From contig NW_027117346.1 in NCBI RefSeq assembly GCF_038025025.1, positions 496,001 through 560,000 of the forward strand: DNA of 64,000 bases, read 5' to 3'. The notes under the pieces were generated by a model that made no database searches, had not been told where the DNA came from, and saw only the letters and a program-made list of their open reading frames with translations. Source of the DNA: Phyllosticta citribraziliensis (taxonomy: Eukaryota). Below are positions 6,723-26,421 of the stretch, piece after piece. The translations under genes were made by a program, and so were the position numbers. Position 1 is the first letter of the stretch. The number at the start of each line of letters is the position of its first letter.

Positions 6723-7442
6723 ATGTCGCAAACAATCGGCAAAGTACGACCCTCCTCCGCGCAACGCCCACCCAGACCGCAGCACCTCCGCGGTCCACAT
6801 TCGCGGACGATTGGCTCCTGCCAGGCTGAACTGCACACGGAAAAAGGCTAACGTACGCGTCCCCATAGACCCGGCTCGCCTACTCGCGCGTCTGGCACAG
6901 CGTCAACGTTGGCGCGGACCCGCGGCCGCTGGGACGCATCGCGACGGCGATAGCATTGACGCTGATGGGCAAGCACAAGCCCATCTTCGACCCTTCAACC
7001 GACTGCGGCGACTACGTGGTGGCCACCAACTGCAAGGACCTGACGACGACGGGCAAGAAGCGCCAGAAGAAGATGTACTACCACCACAACACGCGGCCGG
7101 GCAGCTTGCAGGAGATTACCATGGACCGCCTCATGAAGAAGTGGGGAGGTGGCGAGATCTTGAAGCGTGCTGTTAGTGGCATGTTGCCCAAGAACCGCCT
7201 CCGCAAGGAGCGTCTGGCTAGGTTGAAGTGTGAGTGCTCTGTTTGAGAGTGTTGGGTGACTTGGGACAACGACACCAGATTCGCTCAGTGGGCGGCACTT
7301 TGGCTGACAATTATGTTTCCTCAAAGGTTTCGAAGGCAACTCGCATCCGTACAAGGAAAACATCATCCGATTCAACGGACAGACGGTGCCGTCGATAGCA
7401 CAGCTCGAGGAGGTCAAAAAGACCATTTCGACGCCGCGGTAG
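6723..7442 (+). CDS. MRPL23: Mitochondrial ribosomal protein uL13
   Basis: Exons 6723-6743, 6869-7229 and 7327-7442. MSQTIGKTRLAYSRVWH..LMGKHKPIFDPSTDCGDYVV..AVSGMLPKNRLR..RL are uL13 signatures. Confidence 0.92.
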
Positions 7443-15059: not shown

Positions 15060-16873
15060 AAGTAGCGGATGTGTAGTCAGCGTTAATAGCATGATTTATT
15101 CAACGCCTGAGCTTGTGGGTGCAGATGACTGAGCCATATGGGTGAACCAATGAGTTGGTAAGTGCTCATGTTGAATCGATGGCAGTACAACGTCGGCGTA
15201 TAAATTCCATGTGCGCGCCGGCGCACCCGGGAACCAACAAGAGATGAAAAAAAAAAAATTAAAACACGCAGTACAGCCAAGCCCGAAAGAAGGAGCGGTG
15301 GCAAAGATTTCTTGTGGTGCTCCGAAGCAAGTCGTAGGGTATATAGAAAAGCGAGGGAGACTGGTTCACCTACTACCCCAGCCGATGACCGAGGGCGCGG
15401 ACGATACCGACGGCTGTTCTACCATGCAAGAAGCGCCGCAGGTCGCGATGGCCGTACATGTAGACTCACGTACAGTGTAAGCATGTAGGTAGGCATGCAG
15501 TACGATCGGATGCACGACAGGTACCGAACCGTTGTTTGTGCGAGACGCAAGGCAGGAAAAGCCTTGGAGGATACAACGGAGTCTGGGTGGATGGAGGGGG
15601 CCGAGGTGGGGGGCTAGCGCCGCAAAGGGGTTAGCGCACCCGAGCGGTTCCCAGCCCGGGGGAAGGGTACATGTTTTCTGGGCTGTCGCGTGCGTCGCAA
15701 GAATTGCCGCATCGGGTAGGGCCGTCGTCCTGGCGCCGACTCTTGGTTATCACCCTGCGCGATGCAATGCGTTCGTTGCCTCTGCTTTGCCCTGCAGAGC
15801 TGAATTGCGTGTGGCACTAGAGAGTACGGTAGCTACGATACTGAGCAATGTGTTTGAGTAGATTGCGTCGGCCGTGCGGACATTGTCATGGTCATCCGTA
15901 TTTCGACGCGACGGAGCGCGTGCCAAGAGACAGTGATGACTTGTTGATGTTGTCCTACTACTAGGTTGGATCCGGCGTCGCCGGACCAAAGTTGACGTCG
16001 GGTCGGCCGCCGGCAGCTTGACCGAGAGCGAGCGGTTAGAAGGATGGATGGGGTTGGTTTTGGTCGAGGCGTTGGCGGGCGAGGGAGGGAGGGATGGATG
16101 GATGGATGGAGGGAACAACAAGAGGGCGCGAGGCGCTCTGTGATGTGCGCGTCAAAACGGCTGTTCCTGCGGAAGTGAGGCTAGTAATGCGCCACGGACC
16201 ATGGTTGCGACGGGCCTGGTGTTTGAAGGCCGGAGCAGGGTCGTCGACAAGGGTCGTCGTGAACCCTTGTTGTGTGGTTGCTGCTTGTCAGCTGTGGAGA
16301 GGTGGAGAAGATGGTGTCAGCAACGGAGAGAGAATGGTGATGTCGTTGACGTTGGTGGATCCAAGTCTAAAGCATCATCGACTAAGCGTTTTCCGTCGAG
16401 GACAGCTTAGGTGAGGACTCGACATGGAATGCACCAGGAATGCGAGCTAGGATGCGACTGTTGCAAGTGGTCCGGGGTCCTCGCCGTGGGAGCGGAGCAA
16501 ATGGATGGCGGCGCTGGTAGGGCTGAGAAAAGTTGTCATGTTGGCTGATTGATACGGCAGAGCACACGTCGGTGGCCGGACAGTGCGGATGGAGCAGAGA
16601 CGAGAATAATCATACATGTAGGATTTGCAGAGGGCAGCGTGGAGGAAGAATGAGGCTGGCGCAGGGCCGGGTGCAGCCAGGCCAGGGCAGGCCAGCATGT
16701 GGCGGGGTCGACGCTTCTGGGACCTCTATGACGCCTTGACGGCTCCAAAGCGACAATTGGCGGCGACGAGCAAGTCGAGATGCATCAGATTCGTCGTCTG
16801 CATTGCGCGCATCAGGCTCCACAACGCCGACGACGACGTGGACGACGATGGTCCGAGACAGGTGTGCAAAAGT

Positions 16874-16900
16874 CGATGCGATGCGATGCGATGCGATGCG
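16874..16900. repeat. (CGATG)5 pentanucleotide repeat
   Basis: Five tandem copies. Confidence 0.9.
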
Positions 16901-17851
16901 GTCGGCGAAGATGAAGGGGGCGGCACGAGGCCATCCCTGTGCCTTTGGCTTTGGCCGAGCCGATGACGGGAGGTGTCCAAGTGTCCAAGACGACAATAAT
17001 GTATTTTTATTTTAAACTCGAGCTGCTGGACGAGTCGTCATTGTCTGCCTGCATCCACCGTACCTAGCGCGTTAATACCAGTCTAGCTAGCAGACGGACA
17101 TGCAAAAGAGGCGGCAGTCGCACAATGGGGCCGTCGCTCGATCTCAGGCAATCTTGCTGCGTTCTCGCGATCGAGCGCGCCCGTGGTAGAGGCCGCAATT
17201 GCACACTCCACACATGGCAAATCGCCGATCTAGCCTGCAAAAGCCAATGATAATGACCTCGACGACTCTGCCAATAGCCCACACTGCCTCTCGACAAAAC
17301 CTCCTGCCAGACGCGCCTGTCCTGCGCTGCACTGCACTGTCCTGCTCAACACCATCCAAACCACCATCACCAACCACCTCGCGCTGCATCACTCTCGCTG
17401 TGCACGCTGGACCTGAGCGCACACTCGGTGCCACATCTGCATCTCCACGCTTGATCGCCCCCGGACCCTTGTTTCCTCCTATCCCAGCATCAACCATCGC
17501 TCCCGCGACAGCAACCAACCAAGCTTACCGTTGCCGCCTCGGCCTTGCAACCGCCTCTCCCTCTGTCTACCGTGCCTTTGTCATCCGCCGTGGCAGCTGG
17601 TGACCTCATCACCTCCACGCCCGTCCTCTTACATCTCCAACTGTCCGACCCTCCCGCAATTCTTCTTGCCCCACGACCTGCCTCCCCTCTCACCCTCCTT
17701 GGCACTCTCTCACTTCTCCTCCGTCTGCCTACCGTCGTATGGAGGGCTCGTCTAGTCTTTACGCTTTATGAACCTGCTACGCGCGACAGGACACTCTTTC
17801 ACAGAAAGTGAAGAGAAGTCCTTACACCTTCCTCTGTCCGCAGCTGCCTTC

Positions 17852-19608
17852 ATGCGAGGGCATGATGCCGCGGCCGACAATGGCAGCAACACCACCGCTC
17901 TAGCTGCCCACGAGGATGCCCGCTCGCTCGTCAGGCTAGTACAATGTCCCAAGTGCTCGCGGCCTTTTCAACTCCCCGTCACTCTTCCTTGCGGCCACTC
18001 TCTCTGCCGTCAGTGTCTCCCGGAGCCACAACTCAGGCAATACATCTCTTACCCCGCAACTCCGGAGCGACAACAAGGCATAGCGTGCCCCCTGGCGCAC
18101 TGCCAAAAGGTCCATCCGGTGGGCGAGTGCAATGTCGACGTGACCCTGTCCAAGGTCATGCATTCCGTCACTGAGGTCGTCGAGGCGTGCAGAGCGGATG
18201 CTGCCAACAGTTCCGTCATGGTGCAAGAGATCCTCCCCGCAAATATTGAGAACGAGTTTCGGACGGCGACGCTACCTGGCGGTCGCCTTGTTGCGACCTT
18301 TTCCATGGCAGAGTCGGGTTTGTTGGACATGAATTCGGAGCTGTCGTACACATCTCTTGCCGAGGATGGAAGCGATGCGGCAGATTTGGACCACGGCGTG
18401 TTGAGTCGCTTGCGCGAGGCGACGCACAAAGAACTCGACTGCCACGTGTGTTACAACCTCCTCTTGGACCCGGTGACGACTGCTTGCGGCCATACATTTT
18501 GTCGAAAATGTCTTGTCCGCGTCTTGGACCACGCCAACCACTGCCCGATCTGTCGGCGCTCCCTCAACGTTCCTCCGTCGCTCGGCGACCAATCGAGCAA
18601 CGCTTGCCTCGTCGCCCTCCTCGAAAGCCTCTGCCCCGACGTCGTGCACGCGCGCGCCGAAGCCGTCGCTCAGGAAGAGCGGGGAATCGCAGAGTTGGAT
18701 GTGCCGCTGTTTGTCTGCACACTTGGCTTCCCCGCGATGCCGACCTTTTTGCATATATTCGAGCCACGGTATCGTCTGATGATCAGGCGCGCGTTGGAGG
18801 GAACCGGCCATTTCGGCATGCTCATGTACAACCGGTCGGGCTCCAATCAGGGCAGCCTGGGGCCAACGCACTTTAAAGAGTTCGGTACCATGCTGCAGAT
18901 CGTCAACGTGCAGATGCTACCCGACGGCCGGAGCTTGATCGAGACGCGCGGGTCAACTCGATTCAAGGTGCGCGCGCACGCCCAGCACGACGGATATACG
19001 GTTGGCAATGTGGAGCGCGTCGAGGACGTTGGACTTGCCGAAGAAGAACGCCTCGAGGCTGAAGACATTCGGCAAGCGCTTGCAGATCGCGAGGCTCAAA
19101 CCGCTGCCGGCCAAACTCCTCCCACCTGGACCTCATCCGAAGCCGCCATTAGCAGTCTCTCCACACGAGAAATGCTGCTGATCGGCGTCAACTTTATCGA
19201 GAAGATGCGCGCCAACAGCGCCCCATGGCTGCATCAACGGATTCTAGACGCCTACGGTGGTCCCCCGGACGACCCCGCCCTCTTCCCCTACTGGTTCGCA
19301 AGCATTCTACCCATTGCTGAAGAGGAAAAATACTTGCTCCTGCCCACGACTAGCGTCCGACAAAGGCTCAAGACAGTTGTGAGTTGGATCCGACGAATCG
19401 AAAGTCAGCGATGGTAAGTTTTCATTTTATTTGGCTTCGGCCGCCGTTGAGAGAGCGCATATTTTGCTTTTTAGAGCGTCATAGCGTGTCCCCGCCTTCA
19501 TTTCCTTTATTCCTTGCACCCTCAGAAGAGTCCAAGAGGCTAATCTGTCGCGTGCTTGTTGCGATGTGCGCTGACAGGCATGGTGGAAGCGCTTGTACAG
19601 TCTTATAA
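17852..19608 (+). CDS. LON peptidase N-terminal domain and RING finger protein (LONRF / CrgA-like E3 ligase)
   Basis: Two RING fingers (CPKC..CGHSLCRQC and CHVC..CGHTFCRKC..CPIC) plus a LON substrate-binding domain (FPAMPTFLHIFEPRYRLMIRR). Intron 19414-19577 gives the end WHGGSACTVL-stop. Start codon uncertain; possible 5' intron 17737-17843. Confidence 0.88.
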
Positions 19609-20955: not shown

Positions 20956-22120
20956 CTAGTCTGAGATACCAGAGTCCATTGGGGCTCAAGCAAGCACGAA
21001 TGTACGAAGCTGAGGCGGCGGTCAGTTGCAATCGGAGAGACGAGTGGATGCAGGTCATTGGAGAAGCGAAGAGGTTGTTAGGCGGATGGTTGTACGTATG
21101 TACGTACGTACGGTGGAGTTCGTACACGAATTGATTTTGATTCATTCATGCACGCATCGAGTGAGTGAGAGAGACGTCAAAGGGTGAGAGTGGGCATGTG
21201 GTGGGGTGTCGACATCACCGTTCAATCCATCGTCTAGCTTCTACAACCGCGTATTGCCTGTCCACTGACCTAGCTAGATCCGGAACTATTTGCGCGGATG
21301 TTTCCCATCACTTGACCACTTGCCAATACCCCACACCGCGTCCAGGTGCAGCTGCATGCAACCTGCTCGTTTGCTCGCTCGCTCGCTCCGCCCGCTAGCT
21401 CTACTTCCCTCTATCTCCCTGCTCTTTTCTCTACCCTCTACTCCCCTCTGTTTTCTTCCTCGCTCTTCGCCGCATCTCCGTGCTCCCGTCATCGACTGAC
21501 TGAAAAAAAGAAAAAGTCCTCGCGCCATTTCTCTCCTGTCGTGCCATTGCTTGGTTCGCGTCAGTGGCTAGCACGTTCTTGGAAGTCATGAGGACGAGGA
21601 ATGCTACACACCAGACAAACGCCTCTCTTCATTCGCGCCGCCTGCCGTGGACACCGGAGCAGTAGTTTACGTGCGGCTTGGAGCGCGTCTGATGTTGGCT
21701 TTGGCCTGCGGTGTCAGATGGAGTGATGAGGGTCCAAGAGCGTGCGATTTTCGCCGCCGCCCCCGAGAGTACTCTCCTAAACACGCAGAGGTTTGGTCAT
21801 CACCGCCGCCACGAAGACAGTGCAAGGATGACGAGCAAAAATCGGACAGACATCCCGTGTGTTGACCAGAACTCCAATCTGGGAGCATCCAGTATCTCAC
21901 AAACGCATTTCCGTCGTATTGCCATAGCCGTGCTATATACCATCGTGCCAGGGCCGCAAAGCTGTACGAACAGAAAGAGAAGACGATTCGGCGCCTGCCG
22001 CCGCGCCTGCCTTCACAGCATACAAACAAAACGCAAGCGCGAGGCGGGAGGTGAAGAATTGAGTCATATAACGTGCCGCAACCACCACCCCACTATCCAG
22101 CGCACCACACAAACGTTTAT

Positions 22121-22205
22121 GGATCGGTGGCGTAGTGGTAACGCATGTCGTGGTTCAAACATTCGCATCCACGGCAAGTCCCAGGTTCAAGTCCTGGTCG
22201 ATCTA
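22121..22205 (+). ncRNA. Atypical tRNA-like Pol III gene with extended anticodon arm; isotype undetermined
   Basis: Acceptor stem GGATCGG/TCGATCT plus A, D arm GCGT-AGTGGTA-ACGC, T arm CCAGG-TTCAAGT-CCTGG, A box TGGCGTAGTGG, B box GGTTCAAGTCC, and T6 at 22232-22237. The anticodon arm is TGTCGTGG/CCACGGCA around a 15-nt loop. Confidence 0.8.
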
Positions 22206-23460
22206 ACTACTGGAGTGCCTTTTGCCCCTTTCTTTTTTGCCTCTCTCTTTGTTTTCGTTGGCTGGCTGGTTGACAGGCTGGTTAGCTGGTGGGGTTGAGT
22301 GGTAGCGAGAGGAGAGGGGGGGGTTGTACAGGGCCGGCTTCGTTCCACGGTTGTGGGTTGATGCGGCAGGGTCTTGTTTGAGGTCGACCATGGCTAGTCA
22401 CGGTTTAATTCTTCGTCGCGGCTGCGGTGGAGCTTTTTGTTTGCTGTGGCCGTAACACATTTTTGCCGCTGCTCTATGGGCAATGTGAGTAAGGTGGTCG
22501 TTTAGGCAGTCAGTCCATCGATTGACTGCGAGCGGCCCAGGAGTGCGGCGGAGATGTTGGGCAGGGTCAATCGACTTCGAAAGACTTCTTTTGGGTCATC
22601 CACGGCATAGCGTGATGAGCAGCAGAGAAGAATTCGTGCCAGTTTCAGATGCTTTCCACTCATCGATCACGATTGACGATCCAGACGCCTTTCACGTCGA
22701 TAGTAGCCACGCTGTCCTTGGTGTGCTGGATTTCCAATTTTTCCCCCTGGGTGAGAGAAATTCGGGAATACGGCATTTGGTCGGTTGTGGTCCAGTGACA
22801 AGACTGGCCGTTGAAATCAGAAAGACTCACGCAGCCAGAGGAACACGGCGCAATGGTAAAGGCGCCGACTGTACTGCTCTCAGTCACCTGGAGCGAAAAG
22901 AGAAAGGCGACTGAGAATAAGCGTCTGCTCGTACAGTGGTGTCAGTCGTCTGCATGGCCTGGATATTCATGTCCATTGGTGGACGTCTGTTGGTATTTTT
23001 GCTCCAAGCTCTTTCTGAACAGACTCGCCTGCTCTACTCCTGGTGCAAAGGCCGTGGTCGCGGGAATCTTTTCCAGATGTTGTTCTTGTGGCGACTTCAA
23101 ATGATGCACCGCCAGAGGCATGGAGGCCACAAGCCAAACCTCGGCCTCCATGAGTTCCTCCCAGCCCTCAAGTGCGATGATGTGCAGACTTTGCAGGTGG
23201 GCGACATGGCCATATGAGTAAGACAAAAGCAAAGCACGACCCGCATTCAGAGCGCTTCAACAATATCAAGCACAAGGCCACTGGCCTCAAAGCCTTGGCC
23301 AAAAAAGAAGGTGCAGCGCCTCGCGGCTCCACTCTTACAGTGTGACTCACTCCTCCCAAAAAAATGCGCACAAAACGAATCTCCACGATCTCGCTTGCAG
23401 CGTTCGAGCGCGTGGACTCGAACGCCGGTCTGTTCGCCAAAACAAAAGGTAAGTTTTGAG

Positions 23461-23532
23461 TAGCTGAAAGTGGTTTCGATCCACTGTCCTCCGGGTTATG
23501 AGCCCGGCGCGCTTCCGCTGCGCCATTCAGCT
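23461..23532 (-). tRNA. Initiator tRNA-Met (CAT), intronless
   Basis: Reverse complement AGCTGAATGGCGCAGCGGAAGCGCGCCGGGCTCATAACCCGGAGGACAGTGGATCGAAACCACTTTCAGCTA. It shows A1:U72, the GGG/CCC anticodon stem and the ATCGAAA T-loop typical of eukaryotic iMet. Confidence 0.96.
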
Positions 23533-24160
23533 GTTGTTGAAAGTGATCTCGCAAAATCAAATTATATCATACTTCAAATGCGTCGATCACACAAGACGAA
23601 CTTTCCCTATACACTCATTTGGACGCTGTCTTTTTCCTGGTACGTTTTTCATAGAGCATGCGCTTTCTCGCGGAACAAAGAGGGTGCGGTGCGAGGCTGA
23701 GCGCTTCTCAGCCACTACGCAAACAGCCCGCTCGGCGGCGATTTCAGAAATGCTCGAACGCAACGACGACGTCAGTAGCACTAGTTGTCAAAATGTCAGC
23801 CTCGAATCTAGTGTCAGAGGATGGCAAACATAATCCGAGAGGGGAGGAAGGTGCTAAATGCTCTTCCGCGAGAACGGTGCACGGATTCCCAAAGTTCGCG
23901 ATTCAGCGCGAAAAAGTCGACGGACCAGCAAGAAAGACGCCGCAACGAATCACGCGTTCTGAGCCTGTATGAAGTCTTAGGTCATGCTAACTACTGGACG
24001 ATGAACCGCGGACTTCACCTACAAACCGGACTGCACTTTCAAGCACTTTGGAGGAATCTACACGTCTTTTCCCGTAGACTGTTTGTACATATTTTGAACA
24101 AGCGAGACTCGATTTCAACAATCACCTGACCAGGCGATTGAGCAAGAACAACTTCTTCAA

Positions 24161-24247
24161 GGTTCTATAGTGTAGTGGCTAGCACATGAGATTCTGAGTA
24201 TCATCAGCAATATTCTCATAACCCCGGTTCGATCCCGGGTAGGACCT
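24161..24247 (+). tRNA. tRNA-Gln (CTG) with 15-nt intron (24198-24212)
   Basis: GGTTCTA/TAGGACC acceptor stem, TGAGA-TT-CTG-A-[intron]-T-TCTCA anticodon arm, CCCGG-TTCGATC-CCGGG T arm, followed by TTTT. Confidence 0.95.
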
Positions 24248-25400
24248 GATCTTTTGCCCAGGGTAACGGGATGGGCTTTTGTTTTGGACGGCGGGCGGAC
24301 GATGGGTCGAGGTCGGTGAAGTGGAGCTCGCGGCGAAAATTTTCGGTGCGCTCGGGTTGGACTCGGCGATTTTTGGGGCCAACGACGGACCACCAACAAC
24401 GAGAAGGCAGGACGGAGAATGTCGGGTTTGTTTGGTTGACTTTTTGGAGAGCTTCAATGTTGAGAGGGTTGGTTGTGTTGCTCCGTCGGACGAGCGGAGG
24501 TGCAATCGTATGATTTTAACCCAACAGAAGTGGAGAAGAGTTGACCGACGTTGGCAGCGGCTGACGCTGCATCAACAGCTCAACAGGGCTTATCGTTTCC
24601 CAAAGTCGCAGGTCGAGCTCCCTGGTGAGCCTCGTGCAGAGGCAGGATGACATCCCCTGAAACAATCAACAAGATTCTGAACGTTGAGAAGCTGTGGCGC
24701 AATCGTGCGAGTGGATACCATGTGCTTACCCGCACGGCTGTGCCTGCTTGATTGCTGTGTCCCCGGCTTTCTCGATTGATGAATTGCAAGTTGTCCCGGT
24801 CTGGTCCCTGATGCAGATGCAGGCTTGTATTAAGCGTTTTGGAGCTGTTGAGGACCTCGTTTCAACGTGTGGTAGACTGGATTAAGCAAATGGAAATATT
24901 TGGACGGCCAACAGACTTGCCAACCTGCTTTGGCGCTTGGAGAGGCTCCGTGGTGTCACATTCATTGGTACGGAATATAGCGTGGTAGCAGGAGCATTCC
25001 TGATGATCGACGAAGTAGCCGTTGTCCCTGTGTCGATCGGCATTGATGATACTAGGATCCCAAACTTCGGGTTGCTGTCCTTGAGTCCATTGATCTCTCA
25101 AGATTACTCGATGAGACCTGGTCCGTTGTCGATACAGATTGGCACCACAATAACCTGCCGCTCGGAAGCTCGAAATCTGTTCCCCCCTCGAGTCCTTGAT
25201 TCCAAGAGCACCCCGTACTCTCCTCCGTAAAAGGACAGGACCAAAACAAATTGAATCAACTTGATTGGCCTGAACCCCCGCACGTGCCGCAATTGCCATC
25301 GTGCTTCGCAGACTTTTGTCCGCACAACACCAAGAAGCCACACCACGATCCACCAGGGCTAGGGAGCAAAAGAAATCAAAAGAAGAAGAGTCGGGGATTG

Positions 25401-25492
25401 AGCCCAACGCGAGGCTCGAACTCGCAGCCTTAAGATGCCAGGTACTGAGGTGTACTAAGAGTCTTACGCTCTACCGATTGAGCTAGCCGGGC
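25401..25492 (-). tRNA. tRNA-Lys (CTT) with 19-nt intron (25437-25455)
   Basis: Reverse complement GCCCGGCTAGCTCAATCGGTAGAGCG-TAAGA-CT-CTT-A-[intron]-A-TCTTA-AGGCT-GCGAG-TTCGAGC-CTCGC-GTTGGGC-T, with T-runs downstream. Confidence 0.95.
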
Positions 25493-26421
25493 AGCTATCA
25501 GAAGCTTGAGAGCTTCTTGGAAGGGATGAAGATTTGGTGGTTGCAAATGTCGTACATCAATGTCAGTTGAAGCAAGTCCGTTCGACACCGTTTGGACGGT
25601 TACGGCCAACTCTGAGCTTTCGCCCGGAACGATCAAATGATTGGAGTAAACGCACTCCTGGAGCCTCAACGACCGTTCGGGATTGGAGGCGGAGATTGAG
25701 GGGCCGCTCTCTGAGGGTTGGACTTGTACCCCTGAAGTCGACCGGTATCCACCGCCAGTCCTACGAGCAGCCAGCCAGTCTGTATTGAGATATTCCCGCA
25801 TCTGTACTCACCGGACAATTGTTTTGCTGTGGAGTCTGTAGCGCTTGCGCAGGTCGTCTAATTTCAAGAAAATACCCAGTGTCAGCAAGTGACAGAAGAT
25901 TTTGTTGTGGCATGTCCAATCGATTCGGCAACCGGGAAGTGGAGGAAAAATATGCAGCTCCTCTGCCGAAGTTTTGATCCAATAGACAGCCAGATTTCGC
26001 CGAATTTTCCTCTCGGAGTTGATGTGCCCAATAATGGGTTGTTTTCTGTTGATGTAAGCGAATTGAAGATGCTGCGCCGCTGCCAACAGCGGCTAATCCA
26101 GAGCTGTGCCACATCTCCTGTGCCGAACATCAGAAAAGCGATGCGCGTGAAAGAATAGTCCAAATGATTGGACGAGAATGCTCTTCGATCAGAATAGAAC
26201 TTGAGCAGGCGTAACGCTCATGGATAAGCGTTGCGTCTTGCGACACATTCGTGGAGCTGTTGTGGCAGATGAAATATTGCCAGAGGAATAAATGGGAAAT
26301 GCAAAGTCAAGAAAACAGAGGGCAAAACAGTCCATCCAAACCGATCCAGGAAAGCATATCAGCTCTTGAAATACCTGAACATACCAATCCCAAAGCCCGA
26401 GGTCCCGAAGCATCACTCCAT

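What the first reader, a model, noticed from the sequence alone, without database searches (positions are those of the whole stretch)
22121..22237. Intact tRNA-like Pol III gene with an 8-bp anticodon stem and no canonical anticodon
Seen: the acceptor, D and T stems pair fully (with G-U pairs, including G1-U72), the A and B boxes match consensus, and a T6 terminator follows. The anticodon arm is TGTCGTGG/CCACGGCA (8 bp) closing TTCAAACATTCGCAT. With a normal 5-bp stem and a 37/38 intron the loop would be TG-GTT-C-A, lacking both the invariant U33 and purine 37. With the long stem, the 15-nt loop holds two well-formed 7-nt anticodon loops in tandem, TT-CAA-AC (Leu-like) and TT-CGC-AT (Ala-like), and a shifted register gives TCA (opal). 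There is no long variable arm (unlike Leu, Ser or Sec) and no G3:U70 (unlike Ala). Inference: random decay is unlikely to add three Watson-Crick pairs while sparing the rest, so this may be a selected non-canonical tRNA-like RNA (tRNA mimic, unusual splicing substrate, recoding tRNA, or TFIIIC boundary element).
Basis: partly seen in the sequence, partly recalled or inferred. Interest (0 to 1): 0.85.

Follow-up and report, generated by a model that had tools for sequence, protein, structure and literature searches.

The report
Non-decoding tRNA-shaped gene family member
A fungal gene that folds like a transfer RNA but has no usable anticodon is one copy of a small family of such genes shared by related fungi, so it is more likely kept for its shape than for reading codons.

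Summary
Window 22121-22205 (+) is a complete cloverleaf (Rfam tRNA, 44.6 bits) with exact A and B boxes and T-run terminators. Its anticodon arm is a continuous 8-bp helix closing a 15-nt loop, and no reading gives U33 plus a purine at 37.

It is not a lone oddity. Contigs from 4 of 4 public runs laid on it (three labelled organisms and one metagenome) show several loci with the same body but other flanks. All five listed length differences fall in 22150-22162. The helix triplets TGG and CCA are not touched by any listed indel. A paralogue has a different acceptor stem with three two-sided compensatory changes.

The Leu-like and opal-like readings are specific to this locus. The two loop variants I could rebuild lack U33 too. 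A third variant is unresolved and could be a canonical parent.

Best reading (0.45): a Pol III tRNA-derived gene whose product is end-processed like a tRNA but is neither spliced nor able to decode. Main rival (0.30): a dead copy from a real intron-bearing tRNA family. I had no fungal genome and no RNA reads, so expression and a full family census remain open.

The parts
22066..22120 (+). Upstream region shared with paralogues. It holds a TATA-like CATATAA at 22066-22072 and a C/A-rich leader.
   Evidence: contigs with foreign sequence join the window at 22066 (6 contigs, X10), 22089 (2, X10) and 22091 (1 in X1, 1 in X7, 3 in X10). Sequence. A promoter role is inferred.
22121..22205 (+). tRNA-shaped gene, 85 nt. 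Acceptor 22121-22127 with 22198-22204, discriminator A at 22205.
22128..22138 (+). A box. It lies within the D arm, 22130-22144.
   Evidence: exact match to TRGCNNAGTGG. The consensus is recalled.
22146..22153 (+). 5' strand of the 8-bp anticodon helix. Bases 22146-22150 are the normal 5-bp stem. TGG at 22151-22153 is the extension.
   Evidence: No listed indel touches 22151-22153 in any run. The type-B insertion lies directly 5' of them, after 22150.
22154..22168 (+). 15-nt loop. The 5' part, 22154-22162, varies in length among paralogues. The 3' heptad TTCGCAT, 22162-22168, is nearly constant.
   Evidence: and the indel table.
22169..22176 (+). 3' strand of the helix. CCA at 22169-22171 is the extension. 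Bases 22172-22176 are the normal stem.
22181..22197 (+). T arm with the B box at 22184-22194. The variable loop AGTC lies at 22177-22180.
22220..22238 (+). Pol III terminator-like T runs: T4 at 22220-22223 and T6 at 22233-22238.
   Evidence: The three neighbouring tRNA genes have a T4 run at a similar distance.

Best explanation
X is a tRNA-derived, Pol III-type gene. It is one locus of a small multi-locus family found in this Phyllosticta-like fungus and its relatives.

Inferred mechanism: the internal A and B boxes recruit TFIIIC and Pol III, and transcription ends at the T4 or T6 run. The intact acceptor, D and T core lets RNase P, RNase Z and the CCA enzyme process the transcript like a tRNA. 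The splicing endonuclease does not cut it. The position where the 3' splice site should be is buried in a continuous helix, and U32 faces a U at the third-to-last intron base instead of the required A or G. The resulting RNA of about 85 nt lacks the U33 turn and a purine at 37, so it cannot decode. It also lacks G3:U70 and a long variable arm.

The 8-bp helix is a family trait. The 5' half of the loop varies in length between copies, and this locus carries one private variant.

Shown here: the structure, the promoter and terminator motifs, the existence of the family, and the compensatory changes. Inferred: transcription, processing, absence of splicing, and the RNA's cellular role.
For: The cloverleaf is the minimum-free-energy fold with no mispair. 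By my reading against recalled rules, all tertiary-contact bases are in place: U8, A14, G15-C48, G18G19, T54, T55, C56 and A58. The box motifs are exact and the T runs follow.

The recognised eukaryotic pre-tRNA form needs an A-I pair between C32/U32 and the third-to-last intron base, A or G, with the splice sites unpaired (passage of PMC10275265). The neighbouring Lys gene (C32/G) and Gln gene (U32/A) meet this. X (U32/U) does not. No single excision yields U33 in X or in the two rebuilt variants.

Family: 4 of 4 runs hold contigs matching 22091-22204 with other flanks. All five indel rows listed inside X lie at 22150-22162. Word depths in X1 are about 7100-7300 for type A, 5125 for type B and 1790-2170 for type C, of 15150-17550 in total. 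The form of this locus accounts for about 760-1960.

No G>T place appears in X1, X3 or X7, so the G at 22152 (position 33) is kept in those runs.

Loose ends in X1 give a paralogue with 5' acceptor GTGTTGG and 3' acceptor CCAACAT, against GGATCGG and TCGATCT here. That is three two-sided compensatory changes, with G1.U72 and A73 kept. Its T-stem 3' strand is CCTAG.

The same loop types A, B and C recur in organism C, whose flanks are only about 85-94% identical to the window.
Against: I saw no paralogue sequence directly. The variants are rebuilt from difference tables that were cut (442 substitution rows, 53 indel rows and 81 loose-end rows not shown). De Bruijn contigs can be chimeric, as X7 record 24 probably is.

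Type B has an extra C after 22150 that would supply C32 and move T22151 to position 33. It also has one more inserted base and 6-7 substitutions that I could not place. It may be a canonical tRNA, which would favour the pseudogene rival.

Word depth is neither copy number nor expression level. The exact 22-mer covering the D arm and stem has 0 hits in the metagenome, viral and prokaryote collections. The family may therefore be young and narrow.

The X form of the loop is absent from the 2 contigs of organism B that cover the loop.
Confidence: 0.45

Rival explanations
1. X is a dead copy (pseudogene) from an ordinary intron-bearing tRNA family. The 8-bp helix would be inherited anticodon-intron pairing of the precursor. 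Small indels in the anticodon loop destroyed decoding at this and some other loci. Functional members (type B or unseen copies) do the work.
For: Near-identical paralogues exist. This locus differs from them only by 2-3 nt of loop length. Type B has an extra C exactly where C32 should be and shares this locus's leader from 22091 and its acceptor stem. Intron pairing that prolongs the anticodon stem is known for pre-tRNA-Leu(CAA) (passages of PMC1635329). The X loop form sits at roughly single-locus depth in X1 and X3 and was not seen in X7.
Against: The two most abundant rebuilt forms, A and C, also lack U33. They recur in a diverged organism (X10), which is unusual for free decay. X keeps 24 of 24 stem pairs and exact boxes. 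Compensatory acceptor changes coexist with the odd anticodon arm. With the substitution kinds listed for X7, type B still reads C-T-GGT with a pyrimidine next, which is not a standard loop. This last point is inference from incomplete tables.
Confidence: 0.3
2. The tRNA shape is used as a processing or chromatin signal. Either RNase P and RNase Z cut a longer Pol II transcript at X, as with MALAT1/mascRNA or mitochondrial t-elements, or the boxes serve mainly as a TFIIIC-bound boundary within the tRNA cluster.
For: Run X1 has a contig joint with GT..AG ends at 21788>21848 on the + strand. Its contigs also abut X on both sides, at 21848-22122 and 22173-23525. Paralogues share 30-55 nt upstream of the tRNA shape but nothing downstream. 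X lies in an ORF-poor stretch of about 7 kb with three real tRNA genes.
Against: X has its own exact A and B boxes and a T4 run at the same distance as its neighbours, so it needs no outside promoter. Contigs show neither strand, ends nor continuity across X. No run is on record as RNA.
Confidence: 0.15
3. X, or the family, is a working decoder with unusual processing. One option is a GUU or GCA anticodon read despite G33. Another is removal of the 5-8 variable nucleotides to leave the conserved heptad with CGC on an 8-bp stem.
For: The heptad at 22162-22168 has U33-like and A37-like bases. It is unchanged in type A and changed only at its first base in type C. The tRNA core is intact.
Against: An 8-bp anticodon stem would move the anticodon three pairs away from the elbow. 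From my own knowledge, no cytosolic decoder is known with more than 6 bp. G3:U70 is absent (A3-T70). By recall, introns of 5-8 nt at 31/32 or 32/33 are unknown in fungi. Positions 34-36 differ between family members (GTT, GCA), which a single isoacceptor family would not allow.
Confidence: 0.05

Closest known systems
Intron-containing eukaryotic pre-tRNA with an anticodon-intron helix (bulge-helix-loop form)
   Same: Cloverleaf body and an insert in the anticodon loop. Loop bases pair with the insert and prolong the stem (PMC10275265 and PMC1635329, passages). The neighbouring Lys and Gln genes are of this kind.
   Different: There is no A-I pair and the expected 3' splice site lies inside a continuous helix. 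The excised product would have G33 and C37.
tRNA genes of undetermined specificity and tRNA pseudogenes (for example yeast tX(XXX), recalled)
   Same: tRNA-like score with no assignable anticodon.
   Different: X belongs to a multi-locus family with compensatory stem changes and recurring loop types in three labelled organisms. It has no stem mispair.
tRNA-like processing signals: mascRNA at the MALAT1 3' end and plant mitochondrial t-elements (recalled; t-elements also named in earlier finding e1-2937038)
   Same: A tRNA shape with a non-decoding anticodon arm that may be kept for RNase P/Z recognition.
   Different: X carries its own Pol III boxes and terminator. Cleavage of a host transcript is not shown.
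tRNA-derived SINEs of fungi (recalled)
   Same: Multi-copy, with a tRNA-related head bearing A and B boxes and a degenerate anticodon arm.
   Different: Similarity between copies stops at the tRNA 3' end (22195-22204) and extends upstream instead. There is no shared body or tail.
tRNA-Sec (recalled: 6-bp anticodon stem, long variable arm)
   Same: An anticodon stem longer than normal, and a TCA triplet in one register of X.
   Different: X has no long variable arm and a normal 7/5 acceptor/T arrangement. The TCA register is lost in relatives.

Membership tests
Canonical cytosolic elongator tRNA gene | Cloverleaf with conserved core bases | tested here: met
   Core bases read.
Canonical cytosolic elongator tRNA gene | U33 and a purine at 37 in a 7-nt anticodon loop, after removal of any 37/38 intron | tested here: not met
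   The loop would read T-G-GTT-C-A. None of the 12 single excisions that keep at least 4 of 5 stem pairs gives U33.
Canonical cytosolic elongator tRNA gene | Isotype determinants matching an anticodon: G3:U70 for Ala, long variable arm for Leu, Ser and Sec | tested here: not met
   A3-T70 and a 4-nt variable loop. The determinants are recalled.
Spliceable eukaryotic pre-tRNA (bulge-helix-loop) | A-I pair between C32/U32 and the third-to-last intron base (A or G), with the 3' splice site in a bulge | tested here: not met
   U32 faces U, and the site lies inside the 8-bp helix. Rule taken from a PMC10275265 passage.
Pol III type-2 gene | Internal A and B boxes and a downstream T run | tested here: met
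Pol III type-2 gene | Transcribed by Pol III | not testable with these tools
   Only contigs were available and no run is on record as RNA.
Recently mutated pseudogene of a canonical paralogue | A near-identical paralogue with a standard anticodon loop | tested here: inconclusive
   Near-identical paralogues exist. Types A and C are non-standard and type B is unresolved.
tRNA-derived SINE | A tRNA-unrelated body and tail shared by copies downstream of the head | tested here: not met
   Copies diverge at 22195-22204. No second copy was found in the 64-kb window.
Structured RNA family under selection | Two-sided compensatory changes in stems between members | tested here: met
   Three compensatory changes in the acceptor stem and one implied in the T stem, from loose ends of X1. 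Read by hand from consensus ends, not from full sequences.

The most novel reading that the evidence does not exclude
Phyllosticta-like fungi keep and express a family of tRNA-shaped Pol III RNAs that have given up decoding. The members share a canonical tRNA core, G1.U72 with A73, and an 8-bp anticodon helix. The 5' half of the loop differs between members in a few fixed forms. They would act through their shape, for example as decoys for tRNA-binding proteins, as processing marks, or as TFIIIC-bound chromatin elements.
Probability: 0.3. Interest if true: 0.65.

Novelty: new variant of a known kind. Interest (0 to 1): 0.45.

Why it matters
Non-decoding tRNA look-alikes are known mostly as single relics, SINE heads or organelle processing marks. 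A nuclear, multi-locus family would be different. It keeps a flawless tRNA core and compensatory stem changes while none of its rebuilt members can form a normal anticodon loop. Such a family could be studied to learn what a tRNA shape does outside translation. It also matters for annotation, because tools would call these genes Asn, Cys or undetermined tRNAs with introns and so inflate the decoding repertoire. If the pseudogene reading is right, the finding is ordinary.

Tried and rejected
- **Own genome:** none is held, so I could make no genome-wide tRNA census.
- **Runs:** no RNA holder is listed. Only contigs were laid, so transcription, ends and splicing of X could not be read.
- **Metagenome scans:** the exact 22-mer of D arm plus stem gave 0 hits. 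112 of these have a 53-nt span, and the sequences I looked at read as intron-less bacterial-type tRNAs. Only L042 looked like a eukaryotic Pol III gene.
- **Other collections:** the viral collection gave 0 hits and the prokaryote genomes gave 0 hits.
- **Protein search:** I looked for spurious ORFs translated across X in the protein collection. One candidate appeared and none scored.
- **Earlier findings:** nothing by place, sequence or relatives. Word searches gave only organelle or bacterial cases.
- **Papers:** six searches found nothing on such a family. That includes 0 papers holding an 18-base stretch of the D arm. This covers only the held library.
- **Primer-binding site:** I searched the window for a site complementary to X's 3' end plus CCA and found none.
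- **Readings dropped:** ARAGORN's intron model Val(cac) mispairs the D arm. I tried to read the family as Pro(TGG), His(GTG), Thr, Gly, Cys, Asn, Trp or Asp by shifting the register. None gave a 5-bp stem with U33 and R37.

Full report
**Setting.** The window is fungal. A 549-aa ORF at 17768-19417 is 89% identical to a protein named from Phyllosticta capitalensis, and the next hits are Botryosphaeriales. No whole genome is held. X lies in an ORF-poor stretch of about 7 kb with three ordinary tRNA genes:
- an initiator-type Met(CAT) at 23461-23532 (-)
- Gln(CTG) with a 15-nt intron at 24161-24247 (+)
- Lys(CTT) with a 19-nt intron at 25401-25492 (-)

**The observation.**
- The cloverleaf is the minimum-free-energy fold, at -28.9 kcal/mol with z = -2.85, and 0 of 200 shuffles fold as well. 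All 24 stem positions are paired.
- The anticodon arm is a continuous 8-bp helix (22146-22153 with 22169-22176) closing 15 nt.
- Rfam's tRNA model gives 44.6 bits, with 21 nt in place of the 7-nt loop. A permissive scan adds nothing credible.
- The A box (22128-22138) and B box (22184-22194) match their consensus exactly. T4 lies at 22220-22223 and T6 at 22233-22238. The neighbours have a T4 run at a similar distance.
- Read canonically, the loop is T32 G33 GTT C37, a 14-nt insert, then A38.
- I enumerated every single contiguous excision. None leaves a 5-bp stem and a 7-nt loop with U33.

**Why it is not a normal splicing substrate.** A review states that eukaryotic pre-tRNAs form a bulge-helix-loop with an A-I pair. 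The pair joins C32/U32 to the third-to-last intron base, A or G, and the cut sites are single-stranded (PMC10275265, passages). The Lys gene (C32/G) and the Gln gene (U32/A) of this window meet the rule. X has U32 opposite U, and its expected 3' cut site lies inside the helix. Intron pairing that prolongs the anticodon stem is itself known (PMC1635329, passages).

**X is one of a family.** I laid contigs of four public runs from four studies on 21000-26000 at 80% likeness. The runs were organism A (X1, possibly the source strain), a metagenome (X3), organism B (X7) and organism C (X10).
- In 4 of 4 runs, contigs match 22091-22204 but continue into foreign sequence.
- Break points before X lie at 22066, 22089, 22091 and 22126. 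Break points behind it lie at 22155, 22177, 22195 and 22204. For example, 4 contigs in X1 and 3 in X10 break at 22204.
- So several loci share the tRNA body and 30-55 nt upstream, but nothing downstream.
- All five indel rows listed inside X lie at 22150-22162.

These rows define three other forms:

| Form | Difference from X | Canonical reading |
|---|---|---|
| A | lacks 22154-22155 and one A of 22157-22159 (12-nt loop) | 34-37 would be GCA-A |
| C | lacks C22156 and one T of 22162-22163 | 34-37 would be GTT-A |
| B | extra C after 22150, one more inserted base, 6-7 substitutions (records 17 and 23) | unresolved |

Word depths in X1 are about 7100-7300 (A), 5125 (B) and 1790-2170 (C), of 15150-17550 in total. 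That leaves roughly 760-1960 for the form of this locus. The flanking contigs stand at 225-495. Depth is neither copy number nor expression level.

The helix triplets at 22151-22153 and 22169-22171 are not touched by any listed indel. No G>T place is recorded in X1, X3 or X7, so the G at position 33 is kept in those runs. Forms A, B and C all recur in organism C, whose flanks are only about 85-94% identical to the window.

**Sign of selection.** Loose ends in X1 give a paralogue whose acceptor strands are GTGTTGG and CCAACAT. Here they are GGATCGG and TCGATCT. Pairs 2-71, 3-70 and 5-68 have changed on both sides, and 7-66 has gone from G.U to G-C. G1.U72 and A73 are kept. Its T-stem 3' strand reads CCTAG, which implies a matching change on the 5' strand, and one C>T place is listed in X1. 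In organism B this 5' acceptor is contiguous with the form-A loop (record 24). That contig's 3' half matches this locus and its 3' flank to 22271 with only 2 mismatches. It is therefore probably a chimera of two loci that both carry the form-A loop. One of the two would be the orthologue of X.

The Leu-like heptad and the TCA register exist only at this locus, because forms A and C destroy them. The heptad at 22162-22168 is unchanged in A and differs at its first base in C. To use it, however, a decoder would need an 8-bp anticodon stem and would lack G3:U70. The three extra pairs were inherited and were not added by this locus.

**What I think it is.** X is most likely a tRNA-derived Pol III gene whose RNA is end-processed like a tRNA but is neither spliced nor able to decode (0.45). 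It would be a member of a lineage-restricted family kept for its shape. The steps from transcription onward are inferred.

The main rival (0.30) is a dead copy within a real intron-bearing tRNA family. Form B, which has a C where C32 belongs, would be the live parent. I could not rebuild form B.

A processing-signal or TFIIIC-boundary role (0.15) is suggested by three things. Run X1 has joints with splice-like ends (21788>21848 with GT..AG, and 23963>24022 with CT..AC). Contigs abut X on both sides. The paralogues share upstream sequence. Contigs prove none of this.

A working decoder is unlikely (0.05).

**Limits.**
- The tables were cut (442, 53 and 81 rows not shown), and contigs may be chimeric.
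- The exact D-arm plus stem 22-mer had 0 hits in the metagenome, viral and prokaryote collections.
- Six paper searches found no description of such a family. This covers only the held library.

**Verdict.** I rate it a new variant of a known kind (tRNA look-alikes), with interest 0.45.

Noticed in passing
window 23461-25492: Three ordinary tRNA genes lie within 2 kb of each other and 1.3-3.3 kb from X: an initiator-type Met(CAT, A1:U72), Gln(CTG) with a 15-nt intron, and Lys(CTT) with a 19-nt intron. The surrounding stretch of about 7 kb has no long ORF.
   Followed up: partly
window 21788-21848 and 23963-24022: Run X1 has contig joints that skip 59 nt (GT..AG, + strand) and 58 nt (CT..AC, i.e. 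GT..AG on the - strand). Two bins of the laid stretch have zero depth. X1 therefore looks like cDNA, and spliced transcripts seem to cross the tRNA cluster, one of them overlapping the Met and Gln genes.
   Followed up: no
window 22066-22120: Paralogues share 30-55 nt upstream of the tRNA shape, and several carry a TATA-like motif just beyond the shared part. Here the motif is CATATAA at 22066-22072. The three neighbouring tRNA genes do not share this leader.
   Followed up: partly
L042:392-487 (-), metagenome contig: A Pol III-looking tRNA-like gene with a T9 run. Its D loop, A26, 4-nt variable loop AGTC and A73 match X, and 5 of 7 acceptor bases are the same. It has a 31-nt anticodon-loop insert with a perfect 14-nt palindrome. 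By my reading it has no standard anticodon loop (U33 present, pyrimidine at 37). Its relation to X is uncertain, because the search pattern forced the D arm and T loop to match.
   Followed up: partly
window 22121-22206 (-): The antisense strand of X gives a sub-threshold match to Rfam RF04354 (plastid ycf2 5'UTR), at 21 bits against a threshold of 65.7. I take this as a tRNA-antisense resemblance with no meaning here.
   Followed up: no
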